Virus record (IMG/VR): IMGVR_UViG_3300045988_139913
Length of the DNA stretch: 38,677 nt
Source: a virus
Lineage: Duplodnaviria > Heunggongvirae > Uroviricota > Caudoviricetes
Reading direction: 5' to 3' (one strand)
Shown: positions 509 to 38,586 of the stretch, piece after piece
Numbering within the stretch: the stretch's first letter is position 1
How the letters are laid out: each line of letters opens with the position of its first letter
Notes under the pieces: model-generated
Databases searched by the model: none
Told to the model about the DNA's origin: nothing
The model's input: only the letters and a program-made list of their open reading frames with translations
Position numbers and translations under genes: made by a program

Positions 509-1604
509 TGCTCTGTTCAGAAGTAAATCACTGGAGAATCCTTCCACCCCGATAACCGGTGATGCCGTTGATACTGATGGGCTGTTCCGGGCAGACGTTT
601 ATGTCAGTCCTGAGACTGCGATGAAACTGGCTGCGGTGTATTCCTGTATCTATGTCCTGTCTTCCAGCCTTGCCCAGATGCCGTTGCATGTTATGCGCAG
701 GCACAAGGGGAAGGTTGAACCCGCACGCGATCATCCGGCGTTTTATCTGGTTCATGATGAGCCCAATACCTGGCAAACCAGCTACAAATGGCGCGAACTG
801 AAGCAACGTCACATCCTTGGCTGGGGGAATGGGTATACCTGGGTGAAACGTAATCGTCGCGGTGAAGTCATATCCCTGGATTGCTGTATGCCGTGGGAAA
901 CGACGCTGATGAATACTGGTGGCCGATATACCTACGGTTTGTACAACGAATATGGGGCGTTTGCGATCAGTCCGGACGATATGATCCACATCCGTGCGCT
1001 GGGTAATAATCAGAAGATGGGGCTGAGTCCGATTATGCAACATGCCGAAACAATAGGCATGGGGATGAGCGGTCAGAAGTACACAGAAAGCTTCTTCAGC
1101 GGTAATGCCCGTCCGGCGGGGATAGTATCCGTTAAAAGCGGACTCAATAAGGAAAGCTGGGGCTGGCTTAAAGATCAGTGGCAGAAGGCATCGCAGGCGT
1201 TACGCCGCCAGGAAAACAAAACCATGCTGCTGCCAGCCGATCTGGATTACAAGGCACTGACTGTGTCGCCAGTTGACGCTCAGATCATTGACATGATGAA
1301 GCTGAACCGTTCAATGATCGCCGGTATTTTCAATATTCCTGCGCACATGATTAATGACCTCGAAAAAGCCACCTTCTCCAATATTTCTGCGCAGGCGATT
1401 CAGTTTGTCCGCTACACGATGATGCCGTGGGTGACGAACTGGGAGCAGGAGCTTAACCGTCGCTTGTTTACCCGCGCTGAGTTAGCCGCCGGGTATTACG
1501 TCAGGTTCAATCTGACGGGGCTTTTACGCGGAACTCCGCAGGAGCGCGCGCAATTCTATCACTTCGCTATTACCGATGGATGGATGAGCCGTAATGAGGC
1601 CCGC
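498..1604 (+). pseudogene. Portal gene of the flanking phage (HK97-like family), 5' portion, interrupted by the Mu-like insertion
   Basis: ORF-track ORF 450..1607; likely GTG start at 498 preceded by AAGGGGG; C-terminal region ...LLRGTPQERAQFYHFAITDGWMSRNEAR is portal-like; reading frame is cut by the prophage end at 1605, whose TGA supplies the stop. Confidence 0.65.
1600..1604. repeat. Target-site duplication CCCGC (right-end side of prophage)
   Basis: CCCGC immediately outside the prophage terminus; identical 5-mer at 38582..38586. Confidence 0.8.
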
Positions 1605-2926: not shown

Positions 2927-3035
2927 TCAGCATTATGATATGACGTTTGCAACGCGGACACCTGATTTCAATGTGATCAAAGGAATCCGCCTTAAATAAC
3001 AGTTTGTTGCAGTTTTTACAGCGAATTGATTTCAT
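2847..3035 (-). CDS. com: Com, zinc-finger translational activator of mom
   Basis: 62 aa, [34 protein letters not shown]... with CxxC...CxxC; AGGAGG RBS; matches Mu Com as I recall it. Confidence 0.9.
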
Positions 3036-3093
3036 CTCACCTCCTTTGCATCAATTCGCCACTATCTTAAAAAACATCGTGGGTTGAGTGTGG

Positions 3094-3150
3094 TTATTGG
3101 GGCATAATCGATCTGTATTGCCGATCGATTTGATTGATTCGATCGTCGTT
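3094..3150 (-). promoter_or_regulatory. Pmom control region: dyad TTATTGGGGCATAA (candidate C-activator site) plus three clustered GATC (Dam) sites
   Basis: TTAT-N6-ATAA dyad at ~3094-3107 about 60 bp upstream of com ATG; GATC at ~3110, 3123, 3141; matches the known Dam/OxyR/C-regulated architecture of Mu Pmom. Confidence 0.6.
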
Positions 3151-9708: not shown

Positions 9709-10835
9709 GGCGGCGTTTTCTCCGGGTGTCTGCGATAATAATCTTCAACCAGCGCATCAATACCGCCGTTACTGTCGTCGCCTTTCCTGTTTTTACGGTC
9801 GCTTTCAACCGGCACCAGAAAGCCTTCGCGTGGTGCAAGGCTGACGCGGGTTTTCAGCCCGTCCTGGTCATTCAGTATCAGGGTGACTTTGCTGACCAGT
9901 AATTCTGTGGTTTTGATGGCATATTTCGATGCATCAATAGTGACCAGCAGGTTCGGCATCCAGAGTTGCCCGTCCTTGCGTGTCCATCCGTCAATTTCTG
10001 CCTCAAAGGTGATGGATTTTGCCAGTCTGCGGCGTTGCTCACGCAGGGCGCGGGCCTGTGCATCCTTCGCCGTAATTTTGCTGTCGGCAATGATGATCAT
10101 CGGTCTGTAACGGGTCACATTACTGTCAGTGGCGGTCCCTTTCCGGGAGACGATACTTTTCGCATCAATATCATCACCCTCAGCACCGTTTGCGCGGGCA
10201 TACCCCTTGACGGTGTATTCGCTGAACCGGTCGCGGAAGTCTTCCTCAAAATCCAGTGTCAGCAGATTTTCTCCGAGAACCAGCTCATCAGTGGCTGTGC
10301 TGGCAGCCCGGCTGAATACCAGCTCTCCTGCGGCATTGCTGGTCATCAGTACACCGCGTGCGCGGGAGGCACGCACCAGCGCCTCATAAACGGTTTCTGA
10401 ATGGTCCAGCGTGAAGCCGGGAAAAGCTGCCGAACTTTCCTTATCGGAAAGCTCCCAGCGAACGGTAACGCCATAAGGAGCGCACAGGTCACGCGCAATC
10501 TGTTCCAGTGTGCGGTTTTTCCACTGCCCGCCACTGTAAACGGCAGCACAGTCAATCAGGTCAGCCGTTTTGTCACGTCCGGCGACAGTGATTTTCATAC
10601 TGTCAGCGGTCATCTGGCGTCGCCGTGAATCGATATAACCGGTGCAGACAATCTGCCCCTCGATTTCGAGCGTGAACTTCTTCCCCGGTGCCAGCCCGGA
10701 TAAATCCGTGCCCGGTGGCACGTTCACCCCCAGCTCAAAATATCCGGCTACGGATTCAATCGAGCGGGTGACAGAGACTGACGTCCAGCCGGTAAAAAGC
10801 CTGCCATCCGTTCGCAGCGTGACGGTATTACTCAT
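9696..10835 (-). CDS. Q: Baseplate hub / tail protein (Mu gp44-like)
   Basis: 379 aa downstream of P. Confidence 0.75.
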
Positions 10836-12315
10836 TAATCACCTCAATACTGACGCCACCGGGAACAAACAACGGGTTGCTGATACCGTTCCTGCGGGCC
10901 AGCCGTTGCCAGTTCCGGCTGTTTCCTGTGTAACGGTACAGGGCCACCATTGCAGGCATCGTCTCCGGCAGGCGGTGCGTTTCACTGCCCGCCAGTTGCA
11001 GCCCGCGTTTTTCCAGGTCGGCAACAACCAGCAGACGCAGTTGCGTAAGCTGAACGCTGTCTGTCGAAAAGCCCTGCTCAGATGCCGTCAGAATGACGGT
11101 ATCCAGTGCAGCCCCCAGCATGGCGGCTGTTTTTCCGATATCGGACACACTTTCAAATACCGGGGGCGTGGCTGTACCACTGTCTGAAAAGGATACCTGT
11201 GAAAAGCCGCCGTCCGGGGTTATGGCAGTTAACTGTAACTGTCCCTGTGTGACAGTAGCAGATGTGCTGCTGGCCCCGCTGGCTGTGCCGGTTGTGGTGG
11301 ACGGGGCATCCAGTACAGGTGCACGGGCGGCATTATCCATCCGGCGACTGAAATCCAGTGCCGCAGTCAGTGCCTGACTGGCAGCTTCTGCCCGGTATGT
11401 CTGCGCCGCTGCCAGCATGACGTAGTTCAGTGTGGCAATATTTTTTTCTGCAACCGGACTGTTGTACGAGGTTGTGATTGTCCCCTGTCTGCCTGCGGTG
11501 GCGGCATGGCGAGGTTCGAATCGCTGCGCCAGACGGTTCCATGTGGAAAATGCTGTCCGGGTATCGCATAACGATGAAACGCCGGACAGCGCCCCCATCA
11601 GCGAGGAGGCCAGCATGGCAGGCTGGTTAATCAGGCTGGTCACAGAGCCTTTCATCGCAGAAAGCGATCCCATCAGACCGCTGACAGTCTGCGTAACCCC
11701 CAGATTGTCCACCGCATCACTGATATCATCGATGACACCGGTTACAGCTTCCATCACGGCGGTTGCCGCCGCAGTGCCATCTTTTACGGTTTGCCAGACA
11801 GAGGACAGCGTATCTCCCAGAGAACCGGTTACAGCAACGGCCTGTGCAGGTACGGCTGCACTGGTGTCTGTCTCTGCGTCCGGGGCAGTATCCTGCAACG
11901 ACGGATAAACGGTAACGGTGAACGCGTAATAATTCAGTTCATCCGCTTTAGTGCGGCATTCCCATGAATCCACCATGACGTCCACAGTGCCGAAATCAGG
12001 ATGTACCAGCTCACCGCTACCCGGAGCATCAAGAGCATCCATCAGCGCACCCGCTTCATCTCTGGCTGTTTCTGCGTTGCTGTTCAGAATGCAGGCGCTG
12101 AATGTACGGGAGCGAAGCTTTTTCCCCAGGTCATTGACGCCGCCGGTATCACGTAACGGGTACTCGCGTTTAACCAGGCGACGTCCGCCAGCCTGTTTTT
12201 GCTCCTCGATGACGAGAAACGGCACGTTACGGAACGTGCCTTTGCCGGTTGTTTTCTTACCACCGCTGATTTTATCCCGGACAGCATTAACGGCATTTAA
12301 AGCATCTTCAAACAT
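10828..12315 (-). CDS. P: Tail/DNA-circularisation protein (Mu gp43-like)
   Basis: 495 aa immediately after tape-measure gene. Confidence 0.75.
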
Positions 12316-15346: not shown

Positions 15347-16834
15347 TTACAGAATGAACTGAACTTGTGCCGCGAAAATGCGGAACTGGTTAATCAGATT
15401 CGGGCCGCACAGCACATCAAGACGGTCTTTGTCGTCCTTGTTACGTGCCACATACAGCTCCTCTTTGAACGTGTCGAAATCCTCGACCAGTCCGGCGTTT
15501 TCCCATTCTTCAAACAGTGCCAGCAGTTCCGTTTTGATCACGGATGGCGTCACCACGGCCTGACCGGTGGCAAAGCGGGTGCCATCACTTGCCAGCTTGT
15601 AGTTCGGGAATTTCTGCGTGATGCGGGTTCGCAGCGAATAACGCAGATAACTCAGCGTGGCGATGGTATTCACGTTCAGATAAGACGGATCACTGTCACC
15701 GTACTTGTTTGTGCGGTACATCGTGATCATGCGTTCAATCTGCATTTCACCACCATCATTCACGTTAAACGTGGAGATGCCGTCAAACAGCAGCGCATTA
15801 CGTTCTGACCAGGTAAAACGATCCCCCACCGCAGGCGGCATTCTTCCGGGCAACGTCAGCGTCTGGAGCGGACGCGCCGGGTCGATGGAAAGCGCCTGGC
15901 TGGCAACGGCACACAGTGTGGCGGCGTACAGATATGACGGTTCCGGTGCACCGGCAATCCCCATACAGGAGATCAGATGGTCATTACGACTGACACCAAA
16001 CGTAGAAATATCCCCATACGTGCCGGACAGCACTGTCACGGCAAAACCATCAGCCTGATTGACCGGTCCCCAGCGTTCCTGCAATTCAGTGCGTAACAGA
16101 TTCAGGTTCGGTTCATCGGTATAGGGCATCACAATATATTTGTATTGCAGATCGCCCATTCCCGCGATACTTGCGCTGATATCCGGGTTGCCATTTTTCC
16201 CGGAGGCGGCTTTGAATGCCGTGATAATCCCGTAAGGGGTGGTTTCACCCGCGTAATAGTTCCAGCGCACGTCCACGGCAGATAATGCACCCGTAAATTT
16301 TGCACTCAGAACCACATCTGCATGGGTGTCATCATCTCCGCTGTCTGCGCGAACTTCTGCCGTCACCGGTAAATCCGGCTGGCCTTTGATTCGGGCAACC
16401 AGCAGGTCAGCCAGCGCCGCTCCCGTTGCACCTGCTGCGACAGATACCGCCAGTCGCTGACCGGCAATGTAAGTCACAAGCGAGCCGTTTTCGCCTGCCG
16501 TTCCTGACAGTGAAATTTCACCGACAGCAGCATTACCGGTGCCGTTCCCCTGCGGAATACACCACAGCTCCGCCACGCGGTTAGCGTTCAGGAATGCATC
16601 TGCCATCAGTGCCAGCATGGAACCCTGACCAAACGCCGCACTGGCCTGTGAGCCGGAACGGATACGGACAGGCACGTTTGGTGCCGCACTGGCTTTACTT
16701 CCGCTTTGCCCGAACATCAGCACGCGCTGACGGGGTGCCGGTGTTCCGCTGACGGCATTACTGTTATCAAATTCGATATACGTCAGAGGAACGCGAACAT
16801 CTGACGGGATCGCGTTAAATGAAATATCGCTCAT
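15347..16834 (-). CDS. L: Contractile tail sheath protein
   Basis: 495 aa; size and position as Mu gpL. Confidence 0.85.
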
Positions 16835-17569: not shown

Positions 17570-17994
17570 CAGATAAACCCCTTCTGTTTTCGTGAGAAGA
17601 CCGGCGCGTCAGACTGCACCTGCACAAGGTTTTCACCATCCGGCGAGGCTGCCGTCCTGCTTTCCACGCCGGGATCTGTTTTGCCATCGCGCACCTGTTC
17701 CAGCCAGCGCACTGTGTCCCTGTAGGCAGCGGTGATCTGCTCGGTGGGTTGTGATTCATTCAGATAAAACCAGGCCACCACGCAACACTGCCGTTTCAGC
17801 AGTGAGGGGACGACGGTAAGCGGCAGAACAAAGCGCGCGGCGAGATAGCCATCAATAAAGGCCGAGGCATCTGCCAGTGCCTGTTCTGCCACGGCATCAT
17901 CCGGCTGCCCGTCCGCTGTTTTAGGGCGGGTGAGAATATCCAGCCGCGTACGTGTATAGCGGGCGCACAGGTCATTTACCGTCGCGTAATTCAT
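17569..17994 (-). CDS. J: Head completion protein (Mu gp36-like)
   Basis: 141 aa, Mu order. Confidence 0.7.
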   Translation of the reverse strand: MNYATVNDLCARYTRTRLDILTRPKTADGQPDDAVAEQALADASAFIDGYLAARFVLPLTVVPSLLKRQCCVVAWFYLNESQPTEQITAAYRDTVRWLEQVRDGKTDPGVESRTAASPDGENLVQVQSDAPVFSRKQKGFI

Positions 17995-18467: not shown

Positions 18468-19385
18468 TTACAGGTAGTCAGCGACAACCAGTTGCAGCTT
18501 GCCCTTCATCTCGTTGGAGACGGTGGTATTGCCATCCGCGAACAGTTCACGGTTAAGCAGTTGCTCTGCGGCTTTTTCCAGTCCGACCGGTACAACGATA
18601 TGCGTCGGCTTCAGGCCCAGCTTCTTACCGCCATCACCTTCAAAAGAGCGCATCAGTTGCCAGCCCTTCCAGAGGTTATCCAGCGTCAGATCGCCTTTTA
18701 TCGCGACAGCCATCTGCCAGAAGCCGTAACCGGCAGCACGGCGGGCGCTGGCACCAAACAGGAACTCGTTATCCATAAAAACGTGGTCGTCATCGATACG
18801 GGTACGTGCGACCAGCTCCGGTTTGCGGCGCTCCTGGAAAATCAGCGGTTTGACTGCGCGGGAGCAGTCCAGCAGATAGAACGGCAGACCGCTGAAGCTG
18901 TCCTGCTCAACGATGTTGGAGGTATTAACCGCGCTGCCCGTGCCGTCCACATTCGGATATACCGGATGCTCCTTGTCGAAGAAGTTCTGACCGTCATAGC
19001 ACGGCTGGGTAAAGCCATCTTTCAGAAGTTTAAAAATCAGCTCATCCGGCTGAACTGCCGCAGAACGGCCCATCTCCTGAAAAATCGGCGCATAAATACC
19101 CAGATTGTCATCCTCGAAGTCATCACGGGAAATACCCACGGTGCCTTCAAACGTTTTATTGGCGATGGAGTAGCCATGCGCTTCCATTTGCTGAATGGTT
19201 CGCTTACCCACCCATTCTTTCAGGGTCGGGAATTTACCCAGCCAGCCATAGGTATTACTGCGGGTGGAAGAGTTCACCACCATTGCAATTTTGTTGTACT
19301 GCGACGGGGCGTCTTCAAGACCGCCCTGAAAATCCTTACGCCAGGAGGTCATCAGGGCTTTAATGGATGCCGGGGTGACAATCAT
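18468..19385 (-). CDS. T: Major head (capsid) protein
   Basis: 305 aa; size and position as Mu gpT. Confidence 0.85.
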   Translation of the reverse strand: MIVTPASIKALMTSWRKDFQGGLEDAPSQYNKIAMVVNSSTRSNTYGWLGKFPTLKEWVGKRTIQQMEAHGYSIANKTFEGTVGISRDDFEDDNLGIYAPIFQEMGRSAAVQPDELIFKLLKDGFTQPCYDGQNFFDKEHPVYPNVDGTGSAVNTSNIVEQDSFSGLPFYLLDCSRAVKPLIFQERRKPELVARTRIDDDHVFMDNEFLFGASARRAAGYGFWQMAVAIKGDLTLDNLWKGWQLMRSFEGDGGKKLGLKPTHIVVPVGLEKAAEQLLNRELFADGNTTVSNEMKGKLQLVVADYL

Positions 19386-20467
19386 TTTTCTTGTTCCTGT
19401 TTCATTTTCAGATACTCAGCCTCTGTAATGCCGAGCGCCTTCACTGCTGCCTGTTCATCAGCAGACAGCACCGCCACCGCCGTTTTTTCCTGCGACGGGA
19501 TTTTCGCTGTGGTGGTCTGCATGGCAGATAACGCAGCGATAGGCTGTTTTTTCTCAAGCTGTGCCGACAGTGCCGCCACGCCAATCTGACCGCCAAGCTG
19601 TTCCAGATAGGTACGTTCGCTTTTGAAAATGCGGCCTTCCTGTTCCGCCTTGTCCAGAACGGCGCTCAGGCTGGCTGTGGCGCTTTGTGCAGTCGCCTGT
19701 GCCAGTTCATCACGCAGGGCGTTGTAGCTTTCCACCGGGACGTATTTCGTCAGGTCAACGGCGGCTTTCTGTGCCTTTTCCAGTTCGGCAGACAACGCCG
19801 CCACTTTTCCGGCATCTGTTTCGAGCGCATCAAGCGCACTCAGGGCCGCGCTGGCCTGTTCATCGGTGATGTCTGCATTTTCGGGGACCGTCACCCCAAG
19901 ACGCGCAAGCAGCTTGCGCAGCGTTTCATTCATGGGTTTGTTCTCCTGTTGAAGGATGTCGGGAAGGTCTGCCGCCAGTGCGGTCAGCTTTTTCATGCCG
20001 GTGGCACCGGGGTCATTGGTCAGCGCAGCAAGGCGGATTTGCAGCACTGCACCGGTGGCGGTGTCATACGGAAAAACCGCAGAGAGATAACCAAATTCGC
20101 CGTCATCGATGCGCTGCTGGGCCGCCGCCGTCCAGCGTGGGTGGATAAATAACCCTTCACCTTCACGCCACTGCATTTCATCGGCGTTAAACCAGCCAGC
20201 CGCGACGAGTTGTTCCGGGGGTAATCCTTTGTCCTTACGTAGCTGGTTATGCTCGTAATCAATCAGCACGTCCTGGTTGAGCGCGCGAACGCCTTCAACC
20301 AGACGCCCGGCAATCTCACCGTCGATGAACCACCCCTGACCGTCTGTCACATCAAACGGACGACCATCACGGGCACTGAAATGACCGGCAGGCAATAGCT
20401 GGCACCAGCCGTCATCGTCAATGGACAGCGCACTCAGTGCGGCAATGCCAATCGCGTGTTTTTTCAT
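19382..20467 (-). CDS. I: Head protease/scaffold protein I (scaffold Z expected as nested C-terminal product)
   Basis: 361 aa, Ala/Glu-rich coiled-coil C-terminus, precedes T. Confidence 0.8.
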   Translation of the reverse strand: MKKHAIGIAALSALSIDDDGWCQLLPAGHFSARDGRPFDVTDGQGWFIDGEIAGRLVEGVRALNQDVLIDYEHNQLRKDKGLPPEQLVAAGWFNADEMQWREGEGLFIHPRWTAAAQQRIDDGEFGYLSAVFPYDTATGAVLQIRLAALTNDPGATGMKKLTALAADLPDILQQENKPMNETLRKLLARLGVTVPENADITDEQASAALSALDALETDAGKVAALSAELEKAQKAAVDLTKYVPVESYNALRDELAQATAQSATASLSAVLDKAEQEGRIFKSERTYLEQLGGQIGVAALSAQLEKKQPIAALSAMQTTTAKIPSQEKTAVAVLSADEQAAVKALGITEAEYLKMKQEQEK

Positions 20468-20663
20468 GTCCTGCTGCTCATCATGGTTTGTGAGCAGTCA
20501 GTTTGCGGGAGGTGCGGGAAAATCTGGGGTTATGCTATTTGAGTAATGGAGAAAGAAAGTGGAAGGAAGATAAAACGGGATTCATACACCGTTAAATACC
20601 GGTTTAAAAATCCCGTGGCGCGTTTTAAAAAATCTGTGCGGCTGATTTCATGTCTGATTCAGT
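20468..20663 (-). promoter_or_regulatory. G-I intergenic region: candidate late promoter P_I and position of the Mu central strong gyrase site
   Basis: Only ~200-bp non-coding gap in the late region, ~18.0 kb from the left end; contains GCATAACCCC (minus orientation) ~60 bp upstream of I. Confidence 0.45.
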
Positions 20664-21134: not shown

Positions 21135-22486
21135 TTATTCACCTCCACATGCCCCTCCAGTATGTCAATCATCCCGTCAGCAATCGCGGCTTCAAGCGAC
21201 TGTGCAGATACGCGGCTGATACTGACCAGCACATCCGCCCGGTCATTCTGTTTGCTGACAGCCTGCGATGTTCTGACCACAACTTTTGCAGTGCCGTCGC
21301 GGGTTGCCACAACATACAGCAACTGGTGGTTCTCCCTGTCCCACAATACCGCCTGTGGTTTTGCCATCAGCGACGGCAGACGCTGTAAATCCTCCGGTTT
21401 CAGGGCGGCATCAGCAGTGGTCGCCAGACTTTTCCCGTTCATCACAAGCAGACGGGCTGGCATATTCCCGGTGCGCTGATATACGGCCTCCGCCACGGAT
21501 CCCGTCATAAAACCCAGCGTACGGACCTCATGTCCGGCCCGGCGTGATTTCGCCAGACGTTTAAGCCAGAGGGAAAAAGCAAGCTGACGCTCCCGGCTGT
21601 TATTCAGCGTCTGAACAACCTGCTCACGCAGCTGCGCGTCACGAACTTCCACCAGTTTTCGAATCAGTGCCTGATCCGTACCAAATGCCGCCGAACCGGG
21701 GTTATATGACCAGCCCACATCTGGCGTCATTTTTACCCGACCGTTGTCAAACGTGGTTGACGATGTGCGGAAAATCTCTCCGGTGCTTTCATCCGTACCG
21801 GCATCCACTTCGCGGGTATTCATGAATGACGTACCATAACTGACCTGTAGCCCCAGTTCTTTCATGCGGGCCGCAGACAGCGCCCGGACGCGACAGCGGC
21901 AGTTCCAGCCATTGGGCGGGTAATGCGTCTGCCAGAAAATGTCGTCATACCGGAAAACCATATTGTGCAGCCGCGCATGTTCCGGGCGTGTTCTGCCATC
22001 CATAACGGCAACGTACTGCCAGTACGGGTACAAATCGGCGGTATTCATCATCTGCGCATAACGTCCTGCCCCATACGCCGTACGGGTATTGACGTTATAA
22101 ATGGTTGCCAGACGACGCGGACTGCCCAGCTCGATTACCTTTGCGTTTCCGTCTGCATCCACGATGATTTGTTTTCCCCACCATCCGAGTTTTTGCAGCC
22201 GGGGGGCAAGTGTGCGGGTAAATTCCTCACGGGTGATGCCTTCACTGACAGCCCGCTCCACTTCCTCACGGATTGTGGTCAGTACATCCATCCGGGTGGC
22301 TTTGGCAACGGTAAAGGCGCAGGCGTGCGCGTCTGCCAGTTGTTCGTACCAGTTCCAGGTGATGTTGTAACCTTTGGCGCGGAAATACGCGACAGCCTCC
22401 TTTGGCGGGAGGCGTGCGGCATACGCCAGATCAATGGTCTGCTGCGGCATCCAGACGCCCCCATATATCGGCAACAAAAATGGCAC
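21131..22486 (-). CDS. F: Minor head/morphogenesis protein F
   Basis: 451 aa; ORF-track start is GTG, alternative ATG at 22450; overlaps 3' end of portal gene. Confidence 0.75.
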   Translation of the reverse strand: MPFLLPIYGGVWMPQQTIDLAYAARLPPKEAVAYFRAKGYNITWNWYEQLADAHACAFTVAKATRMDVLTTIREEVERAVSEGITREEFTRTLAPRLQKLGWWGKQIIVDADGNAKVIELGSPRRLATIYNVNTRTAYGAGRYAQMMNTADLYPYWQYVAVMDGRTRPEHARLHNMVFRYDDIFWQTHYPPNGWNCRCRVRALSAARMKELGLQVSYGTSFMNTREVDAGTDESTGEIFRTSSTTFDNGRVKMTPDVGWSYNPGSAAFGTDQALIRKLVEVRDAQLREQVVQTLNNSRERQLAFSLWLKRLAKSRRAGHEVRTLGFMTGSVAEAVYQRTGNMPARLLVMNGKSLATTADAALKPEDLQRLPSLMAKPQAVLWDRENHQLLYVVATRDGTAKVVVRTSQAVSKQNDRADVLVSISRVSAQSLEAAIADGMIDILEGHVEVNK

Positions 22487-27544: not shown

Positions 27545-28046
27545 CCGCCCCCCTGATATTCCAGATTGCCATTTCCACTTCGCGACGGTTCATCAGTCCT
27601 TTCCATTTATGGCCTGCGGCAAACACCCAGCGGGCCATCTGGTCACGCGCTCCGGCGTAATCACCGGCATTGAGTTTTTTCAGCAGCGTTGATTTACTGA
27701 ATGCGGTAACACCAGTGTTGAAAATAAACGTTGCCAGCGCCGTTTTCTGATATGGCGTCAGCGGCACCCTGACAAGACGATCGATTGCCGCATAAACCGG
27801 TTTTAAATCACTGTCGAGGAGAGCCATACACTCCGCATGGCTGTAACGGCGCATTTCGATATCCGGCCCGGTATGTCCCACACAGACCGTAAGCACACCG
27901 GCAATATCGCGGTAAGGCATATAAGCGATATTTTCCAGATGGATCAGAGACTGACGGGTCATTTCCTGATAACCACCCACACCGCCACCGGCAATCGTTA
28001 CAGCCAGCAGTGTGGCTTTCAGTTTTTTTGGTATCCCCGCCATCAT
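27528..28046 (-). CDS. lys: Endolysin (lysozyme), SAR-type N-terminus
   Basis: 172 aa; weakly hydrophobic Gly/Ala-rich N-terminal segment LLAVTIAGGGVGG typical of signal-anchor-release endolysins; first gene of late operon as in Mu. Confidence 0.85.
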   Translation of the reverse strand: MMAGIPKKLKATLLAVTIAGGGVGGYQEMTRQSLIHLENIAYMPYRDIAGVLTVCVGHTGPDIEMRRYSHAECMALLDSDLKPVYAAIDRLVRVPLTPYQKTALATFIFNTGVTAFSKSTLLKKLNAGDYAGARDQMARWVFAAGHKWKGLMNRREVEMAIWNIRGADDLRK

Positions 28047-28098
28047 GCTTCCCTGAAAAAATGCTCTGATGGCAGTCTAAAAAATCAGGTGGCAGATG

Positions 28099-28109
28099 CG
28101 GGATTATGG
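28099..28109 (-). promoter_or_regulatory. Candidate C-activator half-site upstream of lys (Plys)
   Basis: CATAATCCCGC (minus orientation) ~55-63 bp upstream of lys ATG; same ATAAYCCC motif seen upstream of I and com. Confidence 0.35.
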
Positions 28110-28117
28110 TGACAGGA

Positions 28118-28144
28118 AATAACCGGCAGGATGCCGGTTATTTT
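28118..28144 (-). terminator. Hairpin at the end of C (middle-operon terminator candidate)
   Basis: AAATAACCGGCA-GGA-TGCCGGTTATTT, 12-bp perfect stem overlapping the C stop codon. Confidence 0.5.
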
Positions 28145-28560
28145 GGGCTTTCAGGTGAGAACAGATCAGGCTGATGACGTCGTGTATGCAGCTTTCTCTG
28201 GCGGGCAATAATCTGGTAGATCTGCGGCTGGGACAGGCGGTACTGGCGACGCAGTTCTTCCATGTTACGACCATTAAACTGGCAGTAAAGCAAATCGTCG
28301 CGTAACGCGGTCAGGATCGTATCGCCGCAGGGGATGTAAAACTGCCGTCCACCCAGAAAACATGACAGGGCAACGGCCTGTTTACGGGCAAGTTCACGGG
28401 GATTGCTGACGTTCTGGCGTTTCAGTTCGTTTTCCAGAACATCAATCAGATCAACCACCGAACGGGGCCAGCGTGATTCCAGTTCCGGGGCCGGGATGTT
28501 ATCAATATGTCCGATTAACTGGCGAATTGCCGGATCGTGTTCAAATAAATCATGCTGCAT
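28138..28560 (-). CDS. C: Late transcription activator C
   Basis: 140 aa; paralogous to Mor (shared ...YIPRG/YIPCG...NGRN...EL...Y core); last gene before lys. Confidence 0.9.
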   Translation of the reverse strand: MQHDLFEHDPAIRQLIGHIDNIPAPELESRWPRSVVDLIDVLENELKRQNVSNPRELARKQAVALSCFLGGRQFYIPCGDTILTALRDDLLYCQFNGRNMEELRRQYRLSQPQIYQIIARQRKLHTRRHQPDLFSPESPK

Positions 28561-29275: not shown

Positions 29276-29319
29276 GATGATTTCCCCCGGTACGGTTATT
29301 CATCACAGGATATTGAGGA

Positions 29320-29348
29320 CGTAAAAAAAGCCGGATTAACCGGCTTTA
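29320..29348 (-). terminator. Rho-independent terminator of the early operon
   Basis: AAAGCCGG-TTAAT-CCGGCTTT followed by TTTTT immediately after mor stop (symmetrical A-tract/T-tract). Confidence 0.7.
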
Positions 29349-29352
29349 CTGT

Positions 29353-29742
29353 TTACAGAAGTGAGGGCTGGTACTGGCGGTATTTCAGCCGTCGCATCCG
29401 GCGAATGGCCTTGTAAACCGTATTGAAAGTGACACCATAACGGGTGGTCAGTTCGCTGACGTTGCGACCGTTAAAATCATTCCAGATACGCAAATCCCGA
29501 ATCAGCGAGTCCAGAACCTGACCGCGTGGAATGTAGACCTGACCGCCGCCCAGATGCTTACAGATAGCCACAACAATCTCCAGTGAATGGGCAGGATCAA
29601 CACCCAGTCGGGACAATTCCCCGCGTAGTAAATCGTTCAGCTCCGCCAGCAGTGCCGGAAAGCGTGACGTATCCTCTGCGGGATTGTCAAGATGTGCCAG
29701 GATGGTGTCATCCTGCAAATCACCAAATAAATCTTCCGTCAT
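29353..29742 (-). CDS. mor: Middle-operon activator Mor
   Basis: 129 aa; C/Mor family; downstream of gemA as in Mu. Confidence 0.9.
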   Translation of the reverse strand: MTEDLFGDLQDDTILAHLDNPAEDTSRFPALLAELNDLLRGELSRLGVDPAHSLEIVVAICKHLGGGQVYIPRGQVLDSLIRDLRIWNDFNGRNVSELTTRYGVTFNTVYKAIRRMRRLKYRQYQPSLL

Positions 29743-34094: not shown

Positions 34095-34322
34095 TTATCT
34101 CCAGATAATCTGGCAACCATTAAGACGGGCCGTCCATACAGAACGGGCCACCCCGGACTTATGCTCCATAATTCTGACCGCGTTTTTTACCAGTTCCACC
34201 GGTGGGTAAGTGATTTCAAGAATCGGACGCGCCACGCCGAGATATGATTCATTTACATGACTCCCGCGCGCCTGTAACCAGTTCTGCGCATCCGTTGCCA
34301 TTTTTATATTTCGGGCCATCAT
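34095..34322 (-). CDS. Small protein in Mu kil position (75 aa)
   Basis: First ORF after B, AAGGAG RBS; assignment as Kil is positional only. Confidence 0.55.
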
Positions 34323-38399: not shown

Positions 38400-38581
38400 A
38401 AGTAATTGCTTTTCGTGTCTTTAATGAATCAAAAGCTGTTTCCAACAATCTTTCGCGTTTCAAGATGTAACGGCTAAAATCTGTCCTACAGGCTTGCAAG
38501 CCCCACTAAATCTAATCCCGCCAAATACCGAATAATCCAATGTCCTCCCGGTTTTTTTCGTACTTCAAGTGAATCAATACA
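38400..38581. other. Prophage left end (attL) with transposase-binding sites L1-L3
   Basis: ...CCGAATAATCCAATGTCCTCCCGGTTTTTTTCGTACTTCAAGTGAATCAATACA is the reverse complement of the Mu left terminus; additional TTTCG(T/C)G repeats at ~38421 and ~38450. Confidence 0.8.
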
Positions 38582-38586
38582 CCCGC
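38582..38586. repeat. Target-site duplication CCCGC (left-end side of prophage)
   Basis: Identical to 1600..1604. Confidence 0.8.

What the first reader, a model, noticed from the sequence alone, without database searches (positions are those of the whole stretch)
28047..28144. Recurring ATAA(C/T)CCC motif ~60 bp upstream of lys, I and com, plus a hairpin overlapping the C stop
The same short motif appears at similar distance upstream of the first gene of three late transcription units (28099-28109 before lys; ~20526-20535 before I; 3094-3107 before com, where it is part of a TTAT-N6-ATAA dyad). This suggests a shared activator C recognition element. Immediately upstream, a 12-bp perfect stem (AAATAACCGGCA/TGCCGGTTATTT) overlaps the C stop codon and probably terminates the middle transcript.
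Basis: seen in the sequence. Interest (0 to 1): 0.4.

Follow-up and report, generated by a model that had tools for sequence, protein, structure and literature searches.

The report
Phage Mu late promoter and terminator
The recurring motif is the well-known binding box of phage Mu's late-gene activator C, found at all four Mu late promoters, and the hairpin beside it is the annotated terminator that ends the C operon, so this is a correct rediscovery of textbook phage regulation and not something new.

Summary
The window holds a Mu-family prophage (1605-38581, genes on the - strand, 98-100% identical to Mu and Mu_3F6). The stretch 28047-28144 contains the C stop codon, a 12-bp perfect hairpin (28143-28117) and the C-dependent late promoter Plys.

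The motif is the promoter-proximal half of the published C operator, an imperfect 16-bp dyad centred at -43.5 (TTAT-N5-6-ATAA), plus the adjacent C-run. It sits at -40 to -33, exactly 28 nt upstream of a -10-like hexamer, at Plys, PI, Pmom and also PP (11216-11225, inside N).

The bare 8-mer is barely above chance (5 hits against 1.8 expected). The box plus -10 at fixed spacing hits exactly the four late promoters (0.22 expected). It recurs at Plys and PI in eight Mu-like prophages carrying a Mu-type box whose C proteins are 72-81% identical.

Two lineages carry a different box at both promoters, together with changes at DNA-contacting C residues.

The hairpin is kept as a structure, with compensatory changes, in related prophages. 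The Mu and D108 records annotate it as a terminator.

The parts
28138..28560 (-). Gene C, the late transcription activator (Mor/C family), 140 aa. Its stop codon TAA is at 28140-28138.
   Evidence: ORF. 99.3% identical to Mu C and 100% to D108 C. Homologues carry Pfam PF08765 Mor.
28117..28143 (-). Hairpin AAATAACCGGCA-TCC-TGCCGGTTATTT. It has a GC-rich core CCGGCA/TGCCGG and a U-rich 3' side UUAUUU. It is the intrinsic terminator of the middle (C) operon and overlaps the C stop codon.
   Evidence: Fold. Annotated as a terminator in Mu and D108. Structure kept with compensatory changes in relatives.
28103..28118 (-). Inferred 16-bp imperfect dyad of the C operator at Plys (-51 to -36). Its upstream 2 nt are the last two T of the terminator's U-tract.
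   Evidence: Numbering comes from the -10 hexamer together with 'centred at -43.5' in PMC2582627. The coordinates are my inference.
28100..28109 (-). Conserved late-promoter box CCATAATCCC (-42 to -33) at Plys.
28074..28079 (-). Plys -10 hexamer TAGACT, preceded by a T-run. The inferred transcription start is near 28067. The lys ATG is at 28046 (the Mu record uses the second ATG, at 28043).
   Evidence: No sigma-70 -35/-10 consensus pair is found here, as expected for an activator-dependent promoter.
20500..20535 (-). PI: box GCATAACCCC (20535-20526) and -10 CAAACT (20505-20500). Inferred start near 20493. I ATG at 20467.
   Evidence: 66 of 67 identical to Mu's annotated late promoter.
11190..11225 (-). 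PP, inside gene N: box CCATAACCCC (11225-11216) and -10 TATCCT (11195-11190). Inferred start near 11183. P ATG at 10835.
   Evidence: 67 of 67 identical to Mu's annotated late promoter.
3064..3107 (-). Pmom: dyad TTATGCCCCAATAA (3107-3094), box CAATAACCAC (3099-3090) and -10 TAAGAT (3069-3064). Inferred start near 3057. com ATG at 3035.
   Evidence: 66 of 67 identical to Mu's annotated late promoter.

Best explanation
On the - strand, 28144-28047 is the junction between the middle and late transcription units of a Mu prophage.

**Terminator.** Middle transcripts start at the Mor-dependent promoter Pm (29360-29290) and read through gene C. They end at an intrinsic terminator made of a GC-rich hairpin containing the C stop codon, followed by UUAUUU.

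**Promoter.** The late promoter Plys lies directly downstream and partly overlaps the U-tract. It has a -10 hexamer (TAGACT) but no -35 hexamer, so host sigma-70 RNA polymerase cannot use it alone. C protein, once made from the middle transcript, binds an imperfect dyad centred at -43.5. The conserved promoter-proximal half of that dyad, with its flank, is ccATAAyCcC at -42 to -33. Bound C enables productive initiation.

**Regulon.** The same box, in the same register (28 nt from the -10 hexamer), sits at PI, PP and Pmom. One activator therefore switches on lysis, head, tail and DNA-modification genes together.

**What is shown and what is inferred.**
- Shown here: the sequence anatomy, the register, orthology to Mu's annotated elements, and conservation and covariation in relatives.
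- Taken from the literature: C binding (footprints), C dependence and the mechanism of activation.
- Inferred: the exact start sites in this window, and that the terminator shields the lysis genes from read-through of middle transcription.
For: **Identity.** The window is 98-100% identical to Mu and Mu_3F6. Its four 67-mers match Mu's four annotated late promoters with 0-2 mismatches, and the hairpin matches Mu's annotated terminator.

**Register.** Aligning the four promoters in register gives ccATAAcCcC at -42 to -33 and tA..cT at -12 to -7. The composite pattern hits exactly these four sites against 0.22 expected. Leave-one-out ranks are 1-20 of 77,336.

**Independent test in relatives.** The pattern derived from the window hits Plys and PI in 7 Mu-like prophages with C 72-81% identical, and Plys in an eighth (L015) whose contig ends before I. 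There is one extra hit in about 150 kb.

**Blind test.** In 6 of 11 genomes the longest exact substring shared by the C-lys and G-I spacers is the box itself. It occurs exactly twice per 20 kb on the coding strand (in L005 with one further copy on the other strand).

**Variant lineages.** Two lineages have a different box at both promoters: CCGGAATCCCC in L004 (seen at Plys only; the locus does not reach I), L007 and L008, and ATAAGAAACCC in L011. They also differ at C residues 112, 116 and 120. Residues 116 and 120 are reported to insert into the DNA major groove (preprint 10.1101/2025.05.02.651988).

**Literature.** PMC2582627, PMC4461284, PMC12867686.

**Hairpin.** dG is -16 kcal/mol with z = -5 to -6. 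In the alignment of 12 related modules, 97.4% of cells are paired, against 33-47% when the partners are slid. Three pairs show compensatory double changes. The GGTT end of the stem lies 13 nt before the box in Mu, L006, L007, L009 and L010.
Against: - The bare 8-mer is only about 2.7-fold enriched, and two exact copies lie outside promoters.
- A blind shared-k-mer test on three upstream regions of the window alone is not significant.
- The composite pattern was defined after seeing the four sites, so its count in the window is partly circular. The relatives provide the independent test.
- The simple terminator scan did not call the hairpin. If the full 12-bp stem forms, no T-run follows it, and the U-tract UUAUUU is short and interrupted.
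- I could not read the papers that mapped the late transcript 5' ends (PMID 2522923) or the C-operon 3' end (PMID 2136735). Start-site and termination-point coordinates in the window are therefore inferred.
Confidence: 0.93

Rival explanations
1. The motif is a chance or compositional recurrence of a short AT-then-C-rich word and has no shared function.
For: ATAAYCCC occurs 5 times against 1.8 expected, and 2 of 100 shuffles reach that count. Two copies are not promoter-associated. The blind three-region test is not significant.
Against: The fixed 28-nt register to a -10-like hexamer occurs at four sites on one strand against 0.22 expected. The pattern recurs at orthologous positions in eight relatives with a Mu-type box (Plys and PI in seven, Plys alone in L015, whose contig ends before I). 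The box changes in concert at both promoters within two lineages. Footprints and mutational data are published.
Confidence: 0.01
2. The box is an unusual -35-type element read directly by RNA polymerase and is not an activator operator.
For: It overlaps the -35 region (-40 to -33). In Pmom the adjacent ACCACA has been proposed as a -35 element (PMC2582627).
Against: It does not resemble TTGACA, and no sigma-70 consensus promoter is detected. The box varies by lineage together with DNA-contacting residues of C, whereas host sigma-70 would not vary. The literature reports protection by C alone and absolute C dependence.
Confidence: 0.03
3. The hairpin is a DNA palindrome bound by a protein (part of the C or Mor operator, or a host-factor site), or it only stabilises the 3' end of the mRNA, and it is not a transcription terminator.
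For: The simple terminator scan is negative. At Pm, an analogous terminator-like palindrome lies inside the Mor-dependent promoter region. The 3' arm of the hairpin (-61 to -50) touches the C footprint.
Against: The sequence of the stem is not conserved in relatives, but pairing is, with compensatory changes. L005 has an unrelated canonical GC stem followed by T5 at the same place. That pattern fits an RNA structure and does not fit a sequence-specific protein site. Plys fragments from -60 or -52 to +8, which lack the hairpin, are reported sufficient for C-dependent activation or were used as C-dependent reporters (PMC2582627). A stabilising role is compatible with termination.
Confidence: 0.05

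Closest known systems
[quoted passage not shown]
   Same: Same genome family, same positions, and 65-67 of 67 identical bases per promoter. The box, the 28-nt register to the -10 hexamer and the TTAT-N6-ATAA dyad at Pmom are all the same.
   Different: There are only point differences from Mu. At Plys, C>T at -29 and A>C at +5. At PI, G>T at -53. At Pmom, T>C at -22. All lie outside the -52 to -34 region reported as critical. In this window the gin reading frame also runs on and stops at the TAA inside the Pmom box.
Terminator at the end of the Mu/D108 C (middle) operon (annotated in AF083977 at 10383-10406 and in GQ357916 at 10435-10455)
   Same: The hairpin sequence is identical, and it overlaps the C stop codon in the same way.
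   Different: Nothing in the hairpin differs. I could not read experimental 3'-end mapping here.
Mor-dependent middle promoter Pm of Mu (dyad at -51 to -36, centred at -43.5)
   Same: Same architecture: a paralogous activator (Mor/C family), an operator at the same position relative to +1, a -10 hexamer without a -35, and a terminator of the preceding operon packed against the promoter.
   Different: The operator sequence is different and the specificity is strict: Mor does not activate late promoters and C does not activate Pm (PMC4287176). At Pm the terminator-like hairpin lies within the promoter region itself. At Plys it lies just upstream of the operator.

Membership tests
Mu C-dependent late promoter | Recognisable -10 hexamer but no typical -35 hexamer | tested here: met
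   TAGACT, CAAACT, TATCCT and TAAGAT lie at -12 to -7. No sigma-70 consensus pair is found in 27900-28300.
Mu C-dependent late promoter | C operator: an imperfect dyad centred at -43.5 with the conserved ATAA half-site overlapping the -35 region | tested here: met
   ccATAAcCcC lies at -42 to -33 in all four promoters. TTAT-N6-ATAA is exact at Pmom, and the upstream half-site is degenerate at Plys, PI and PP. This is consistent with PMC2582627 and PMC12867686.
Mu C-dependent late promoter | Orthology to the mapped Mu promoters | tested here: met
   0-2 mismatches per 67-mer to the features annotated in AF083977 with PMID 2522923.
Mu C-dependent late promoter | Cognate activator C encoded in the same element | tested here: met
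   Intact 140-aa ORF at 28138-28560, 99.3-100% identical to C of Mu and D108.
Mu C-dependent late promoter | C-dependent transcription and protection of the site by C | not testable with these tools
   Known for Mu from the literature. Not measured for this prophage.
Intrinsic (Rho-independent) terminator | Stable GC-rich stem-loop in the transcript | tested here: met
   12-bp stem with a 6-bp GC-rich core, dG -16 kcal/mol, z = -4.9 to -6.1.
Intrinsic (Rho-independent) terminator | U-rich tract immediately 3' of the stem | tested here: inconclusive
   UUAUUU follows the GC core but can pair with the upstream AAAUAA. The consensus scan did not call it, whereas TransTermHP did in the Mu record.
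Intrinsic (Rho-independent) terminator | Placed at the end of a transcription unit, with the structure maintained in evolution | tested here: met
   It overlaps the stop codon of the last middle gene. Among 12 related modules, 97.4% of cells are paired and 3 pairs show compensatory double changes.
Intrinsic (Rho-independent) terminator | Transcript 3' ends at the site | not testable with these tools
   The paper on the C operon transcript (PMID 2136735) is not held.

The most novel reading that the evidence does not exclude
The most novel reading left open has two parts.

1. Operator specificity in the Mor/C family may be set by a small code at HTH residues 112, 116 and 120. Q116 goes with the ATAAYCCC box, T112 with D116 goes with CCGGAATCCCC, and L116 with Q120 goes with ATAAGAAACCC. 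If so, Mu-like phages diversify their late regulons by paired changes in activator and box.

2. The end of the middle transcript falls inside the C operator of Plys: the U-tract is at -55 to -50 and the footprint spans -55 to -30. Terminating polymerase and bound C might therefore influence each other, for example by C acting as a roadblock that sharpens termination, or by read-through occluding Plys.

Neither idea concerns anything unique to this window.
Probability: 0.15. Interest if true: 0.35.

Novelty: already known. Interest (0 to 1): 0.08.

Why it matters
For annotating this window it matters in a practical way. It fixes the four late promoters, the end of the middle operon and the regulatory logic of an apparently intact Mu prophage with a 5-bp target duplication. 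It adds nothing to phage biology, because the conserved late-promoter sequence has been known since 1989 and is in the GenBank record. The one modestly useful by-product is the comparative result: box variants and DNA-contacting residues of C change together across Mu-like prophages. That gives testable candidates for specificity determinants in the Mor/C family.

Tried and rejected
**Counting and blind tests**
- Counting the bare motif and the bare dyad gave only weak enrichment, which is not convincing alone.
- A blind shared-k-mer search on the spacers first failed because the Pmom box lies inside the extended gin ORF. Repeated on the 100 nt upstream of each ATG, it found the box but was not significant.

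**Scans**
- The simple terminator scan did not call the hairpin.
- The Rfam scan of the window found nothing.

**Looking for relatives**
- The phage collection has no relatives between 99% and 40% C identity.
- The genome-contig scan gave a single locus. Intermediate relatives came instead from the protein search and contig look-ups.
- I looked for a third (PP-type) copy of the CCGGAATCCCC box in that lineage. There was none within 12.8 kb downstream of PI in L038.
- A search with protein N in viral contigs returned only relatives at 93% identity or more.

**Papers not held**
- PMID 2522923, PMC1205707, PMC208440 and PMC311498. The mapped 5' and 3' ends could therefore not be read directly.

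**Extra motif copies**
- I considered and rejected 21698-21705(-) and 16224-16231(+) as additional promoters. Neither has a -10-like hexamer at the fixed spacing, and both are inside genes.

Full report
**What the window is.** The window carries a Mu-family prophage in reverse orientation. The C-lys region is 100% identical to Escherichia virus Mu_3F6 and 98.8% identical to Mu. Megablast of the whole Mu genome against the window gives colinear blocks at 94-98.6% identity. The Mu ends lie at 38581 (left end) and 1605 (right end). They are flanked by a 5-bp direct duplication, CCCGC, the signature of Mu transposition.

**Checking the observation.** Read on the - strand, the sequence after the C stop codon is AAAA-TAA-CCGGCA-TCC-TGCCGGTTATTT-CCTGTCA-CCATAATCCC-GCATCTGCCACCTGATTTTT-TAGACT-GCCATCAGAGCATTTTTTCAGGGAAGC-ATG.

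The 12-bp perfect stem with a 3-nt loop spans 28143-28117 and contains the C stop codon (28140-28138). As RNA it folds at -16.1 to -16.3 kcal/mol, z = -4.9 to -6.1, and no shuffle of 200 folds as well.

- ATAATCCC at 28107-28100, 61 nt before the lys ATG.
- ATAACCCC at 20533-20526, 66 nt before the I ATG.
- TTATGCCCCAATAA at 3107-3094 before com, with its ATAA 62 nt before the ATG.

The Pmom copy reads ATAACCAC, so it does not fit ATAA(C/T)CCC literally.

**Is it more than chance?** By count alone, barely.
- ATAAYCCC occurs 5 times against 1.82 expected, and 2 of 100 shuffles reach 5.
- The relaxed ATAAYCMC occurs 8 times against 3.9.
- TTAT-N6-ATAA occurs twice against 0.41.
- A blind search for k-mers shared in register by the 100 nt upstream of lys, I and com recovers CCATAATC / GCATAACC / CAATAACC. 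However, 55 of 500 shuffles do as well.

The evidence becomes strong once register is considered. I mapped Mu's four annotated late promoters onto the window: Plys 28120-28054, PI 20546-20480, PP 11236-11170 and Pmom 3110-3044, with 0-2 mismatches each. All four 67-mers carry ATAA at positions 14-17. Aligned without gaps, they give ccATAAcCcC followed 18 nt later by tA..cT.

The composite pattern ATAAYCMC-N21-A-N3-T matches four times in the window. All four are on the - strand and all are these four promoters. The expectation is 0.22, with a maximum of 2 in 100 shuffles. A 10-mer weight matrix built from any three promoters ranks the fourth at 1st to 20th of 77,336 positions.

Two other exact copies lie inside genes F and L: 21698-21705 on the - strand and 16224-16231 on the + strand. 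Neither has a -10-like hexamer at the fixed spacing, and I treat them as chance.

**What it is.** The Mu GenBank record annotates the orthologous stretch as 'terminator, predicted by TransTermHP' (10383-10406), immediately followed by 'Late promoter activated by C, PMID 2522923' (10403-10469). It annotates three more late promoters, before I, inside N and before com. D108 annotates the same hairpin as a rho-independent terminator.

Papers I could read state the following:
- C binds a 16-bp imperfect dyad centred at -43.5 that overlaps the -35 region.
- C protects about -55 to -30 on Plys and Pmom.
- A 19-bp region, -52 to -34, is required at Plys, and -60 to +8 suffices for activation (PMC2582627).
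- The four sites share the bipartite consensus TTAT-[N5-6]-ATAA (PMC12867686).

If the -10 hexamer is placed at -12 to -7, the Pmom dyad centre falls at -43.5, as published. It is the promoter-proximal half-site plus the adjacent C-run, which is the best conserved part. The upstream half-site is exact only at Pmom (TTAT) and is degenerate at Plys (TCCT), PI (CTCA) and PP (GTTA / TTAA).

The start sites implied are near 28067, 20493, 11183 and 3057. These are inferences, because the mapping paper is not held.

**Independent comparative test.** The phage collection has no C relatives between 99% and 40% identity. I therefore retrieved Mu-like prophages through the protein database, contig look-ups and one Erwinia genome. 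Their C proteins are 56-81% identical to the window's.

- In every one, a box lies 59-72 nt before the lys start. Wherever the contig reaches gene I, a box also lies 67-79 nt before the I start, 28 nt upstream of a TAnnnT-like hexamer (31 nt in L011).
- The composite pattern derived from the window hits Plys and PI in seven relatives that carry a Mu-type box, and Plys alone in an eighth (L015), whose contig ends before I. There is one extra hit in about 150 kb.
- In 6 of 11 genomes the longest exact substring shared by the C-lys and G-I spacers is the box itself. It is present exactly twice per 20 kb on the coding strand (in L005 with one further copy on the other strand).

Two lineages have a different box:
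- L007 and L008 share a 19-nt identical TCAGATACCGGAATCCCCG at both promoters, with GGAA in the place of ATAA. Erwinia L004 shows the same box at Plys; that locus does not reach I.
- L011 has ATAAGAAACCC at both promoters.

These same lineages differ from Mu C in the helix-turn-helix. The first has P112T and Q116D, and L011 has Q116L and R120Q. Residues 110-116 were implicated in DNA binding by mutagenesis (PMC2582627). A cryo-EM preprint lists Q116 and R120 among the residues inserted in the major groove. Box and activator changing together is what an activator recognition element predicts, and it argues against recognition by host sigma factor.

I could not find a third, PP-type copy of the GGAA box in 12.8 kb downstream of PI in one such genome.

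**The hairpin.** A hairpin follows the C stop in all relatives except L013, which has a 386-bp spacer. The module aligns from hairpin to box. The GGTT end of the stem lies 13 nt before the box in Mu, L006, L007, L009 and L010.

- For a common structure of 12 pairs, 97.4% of cells are paired, against 33-47% when the 3' partners are slid by 1-3 columns.
- Three pairs show compensatory double changes: C-G/U-A at two outer pairs and U-A/C-G at one inner pair.
- L005 has an unrelated GC stem followed by T5 at the same place.

Conservation of pairing without conservation of sequence fits an RNA structure and does not fit a protein-binding palindrome. The published sufficiency of Plys -60 to +8, which contains only the 3' arm, shows the hairpin is not needed for activation by C.

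The weak point is the U-tract. UUAUUU is short and interrupted and can pair with the upstream AAAUAA. The simple consensus scan did not call a terminator, although TransTermHP did in the Mu record. From memory, and not verified here, the C operon transcript was mapped at about 1.2 kb, starting about 740 nt upstream of C. That agrees with the distance from Pm to this hairpin in the Mu coordinates (about 9220 to about 10406).

**How it most likely works.** Mor-dependent transcription from Pm reads through C and stops at the hairpin. Transcript ends are expected a few nucleotides after the GC core, at about -50 relative to the Plys start, which is inside the upstream edge of the C operator. This keeps the lysis operon silent during the middle phase (inferred).

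When C accumulates, it binds the operators at Plys, PI, PP and Pmom. It then allows sigma-70 holoenzyme to initiate productively at promoters that lack a -35 element. According to PMC4461284, C acts at a single step at lys, I and P, and at several steps at mom. Recent work adds a requirement for the beta sliding clamp (PMC12867686) and a tetrameric binding mode (preprint).

**Comparison, novelty and verdict.** This is the Mu Plys promoter and the terminator of the C operon, not merely something like them. Every sequence-level membership feature I could test is met. Only the biochemical features are untestable here. The differences from Mu are point substitutions outside the critical -52 to -34 region.

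The feature is already known and annotated, so interest is low. The only mildly new material is the covariation between box variants and C residues 112, 116 and 120 in related prophages.

Noticed in passing
window 1600-1604 and 38582-38586; prophage 1605-38581: The prophage is bounded by intact Mu ends and a 5-bp target-site duplication, CCCGC. The host ORF 450-1607 is cut by the insertion and ends in a stop codon supplied by the Mu right end.
   Followed up: partly
window 3094-3130 (- strand): The gin reading frame runs 12 codons past Mu's stop, because Mu's stop and the next in-frame stop are both replaced by glutamine codons here. It ends at the TAA that is part of the ATAA half-site of the C operator at Pmom. 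The recombinase gene and the mom promoter therefore overlap in this prophage.
   Followed up: partly
window 29290-29360 (- strand): The Mor-dependent middle promoter Pm is identical to Mu's. It contains the terminator-like hairpin AAAGCCGGTTAATCCGGCTTTTTTT of the preceding early operon. This is the same 'terminator packed against an activator-dependent promoter' layout seen at C-lys.
   Followed up: partly
L007:10470-10500 and 18535-18560; L008 (same); L004:1955-1985; L011:10310-10330 and 17885-17900; alignment A1: Related Mu-like prophages carry lineage-specific late-promoter boxes: CCGGAATCCCC or ATAAGAAACCC in place of ccATAAyCCC. The variant box is seen at both Plys and PI wherever both are covered (L007, L008, L011; L004 covers Plys only). 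These lineages also differ at C residues 112, 116 and 120, of which 116 and 120 are reported DNA contacts. No third copy of the GGAA-type box was found within 12.8 kb downstream of PI in L038.
   Followed up: partly
window 21698-21705 (-) and 16224-16231 (+): Two further exact ATAAYCCC copies lie inside genes F and L. Neither has a -10-like hexamer 28 nt downstream, so they are probably chance. Whether C binds them is unknown.
   Followed up: partly
window 34095-34108: A second exact TTAT-N6-ATAA dyad (TTATCTCCAGATAA) lies in the early region near the kil/gp6 junction. It lacks the C-run and was not examined further.
   Followed up: no
L004:2031-2105: In the Erwinia tracheiphila Mu-like prophage, the lys ORF begins with about nine tandem copies of CCCCAAAAG, an in-frame 9-nt repeat immediately after the start codon.
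   Followed up: no
L013:10415-10800: One relative has a 386-bp spacer between C and lys, where the others have about 100 bp, and no hairpin is evident next to the box. The box CCATAATCCCG is still 59 nt before the lys start.
   Followed up: no
window 20560-20663 (- strand) and the G-I spacers of L005-L014: The upstream half of the G-I spacer contains repeated TTTTTAAA(C/A)-type blocks conserved across relatives. This is where the Mu record marks the strong gyrase cut site (Mu 17879-17880).
   Followed up: no
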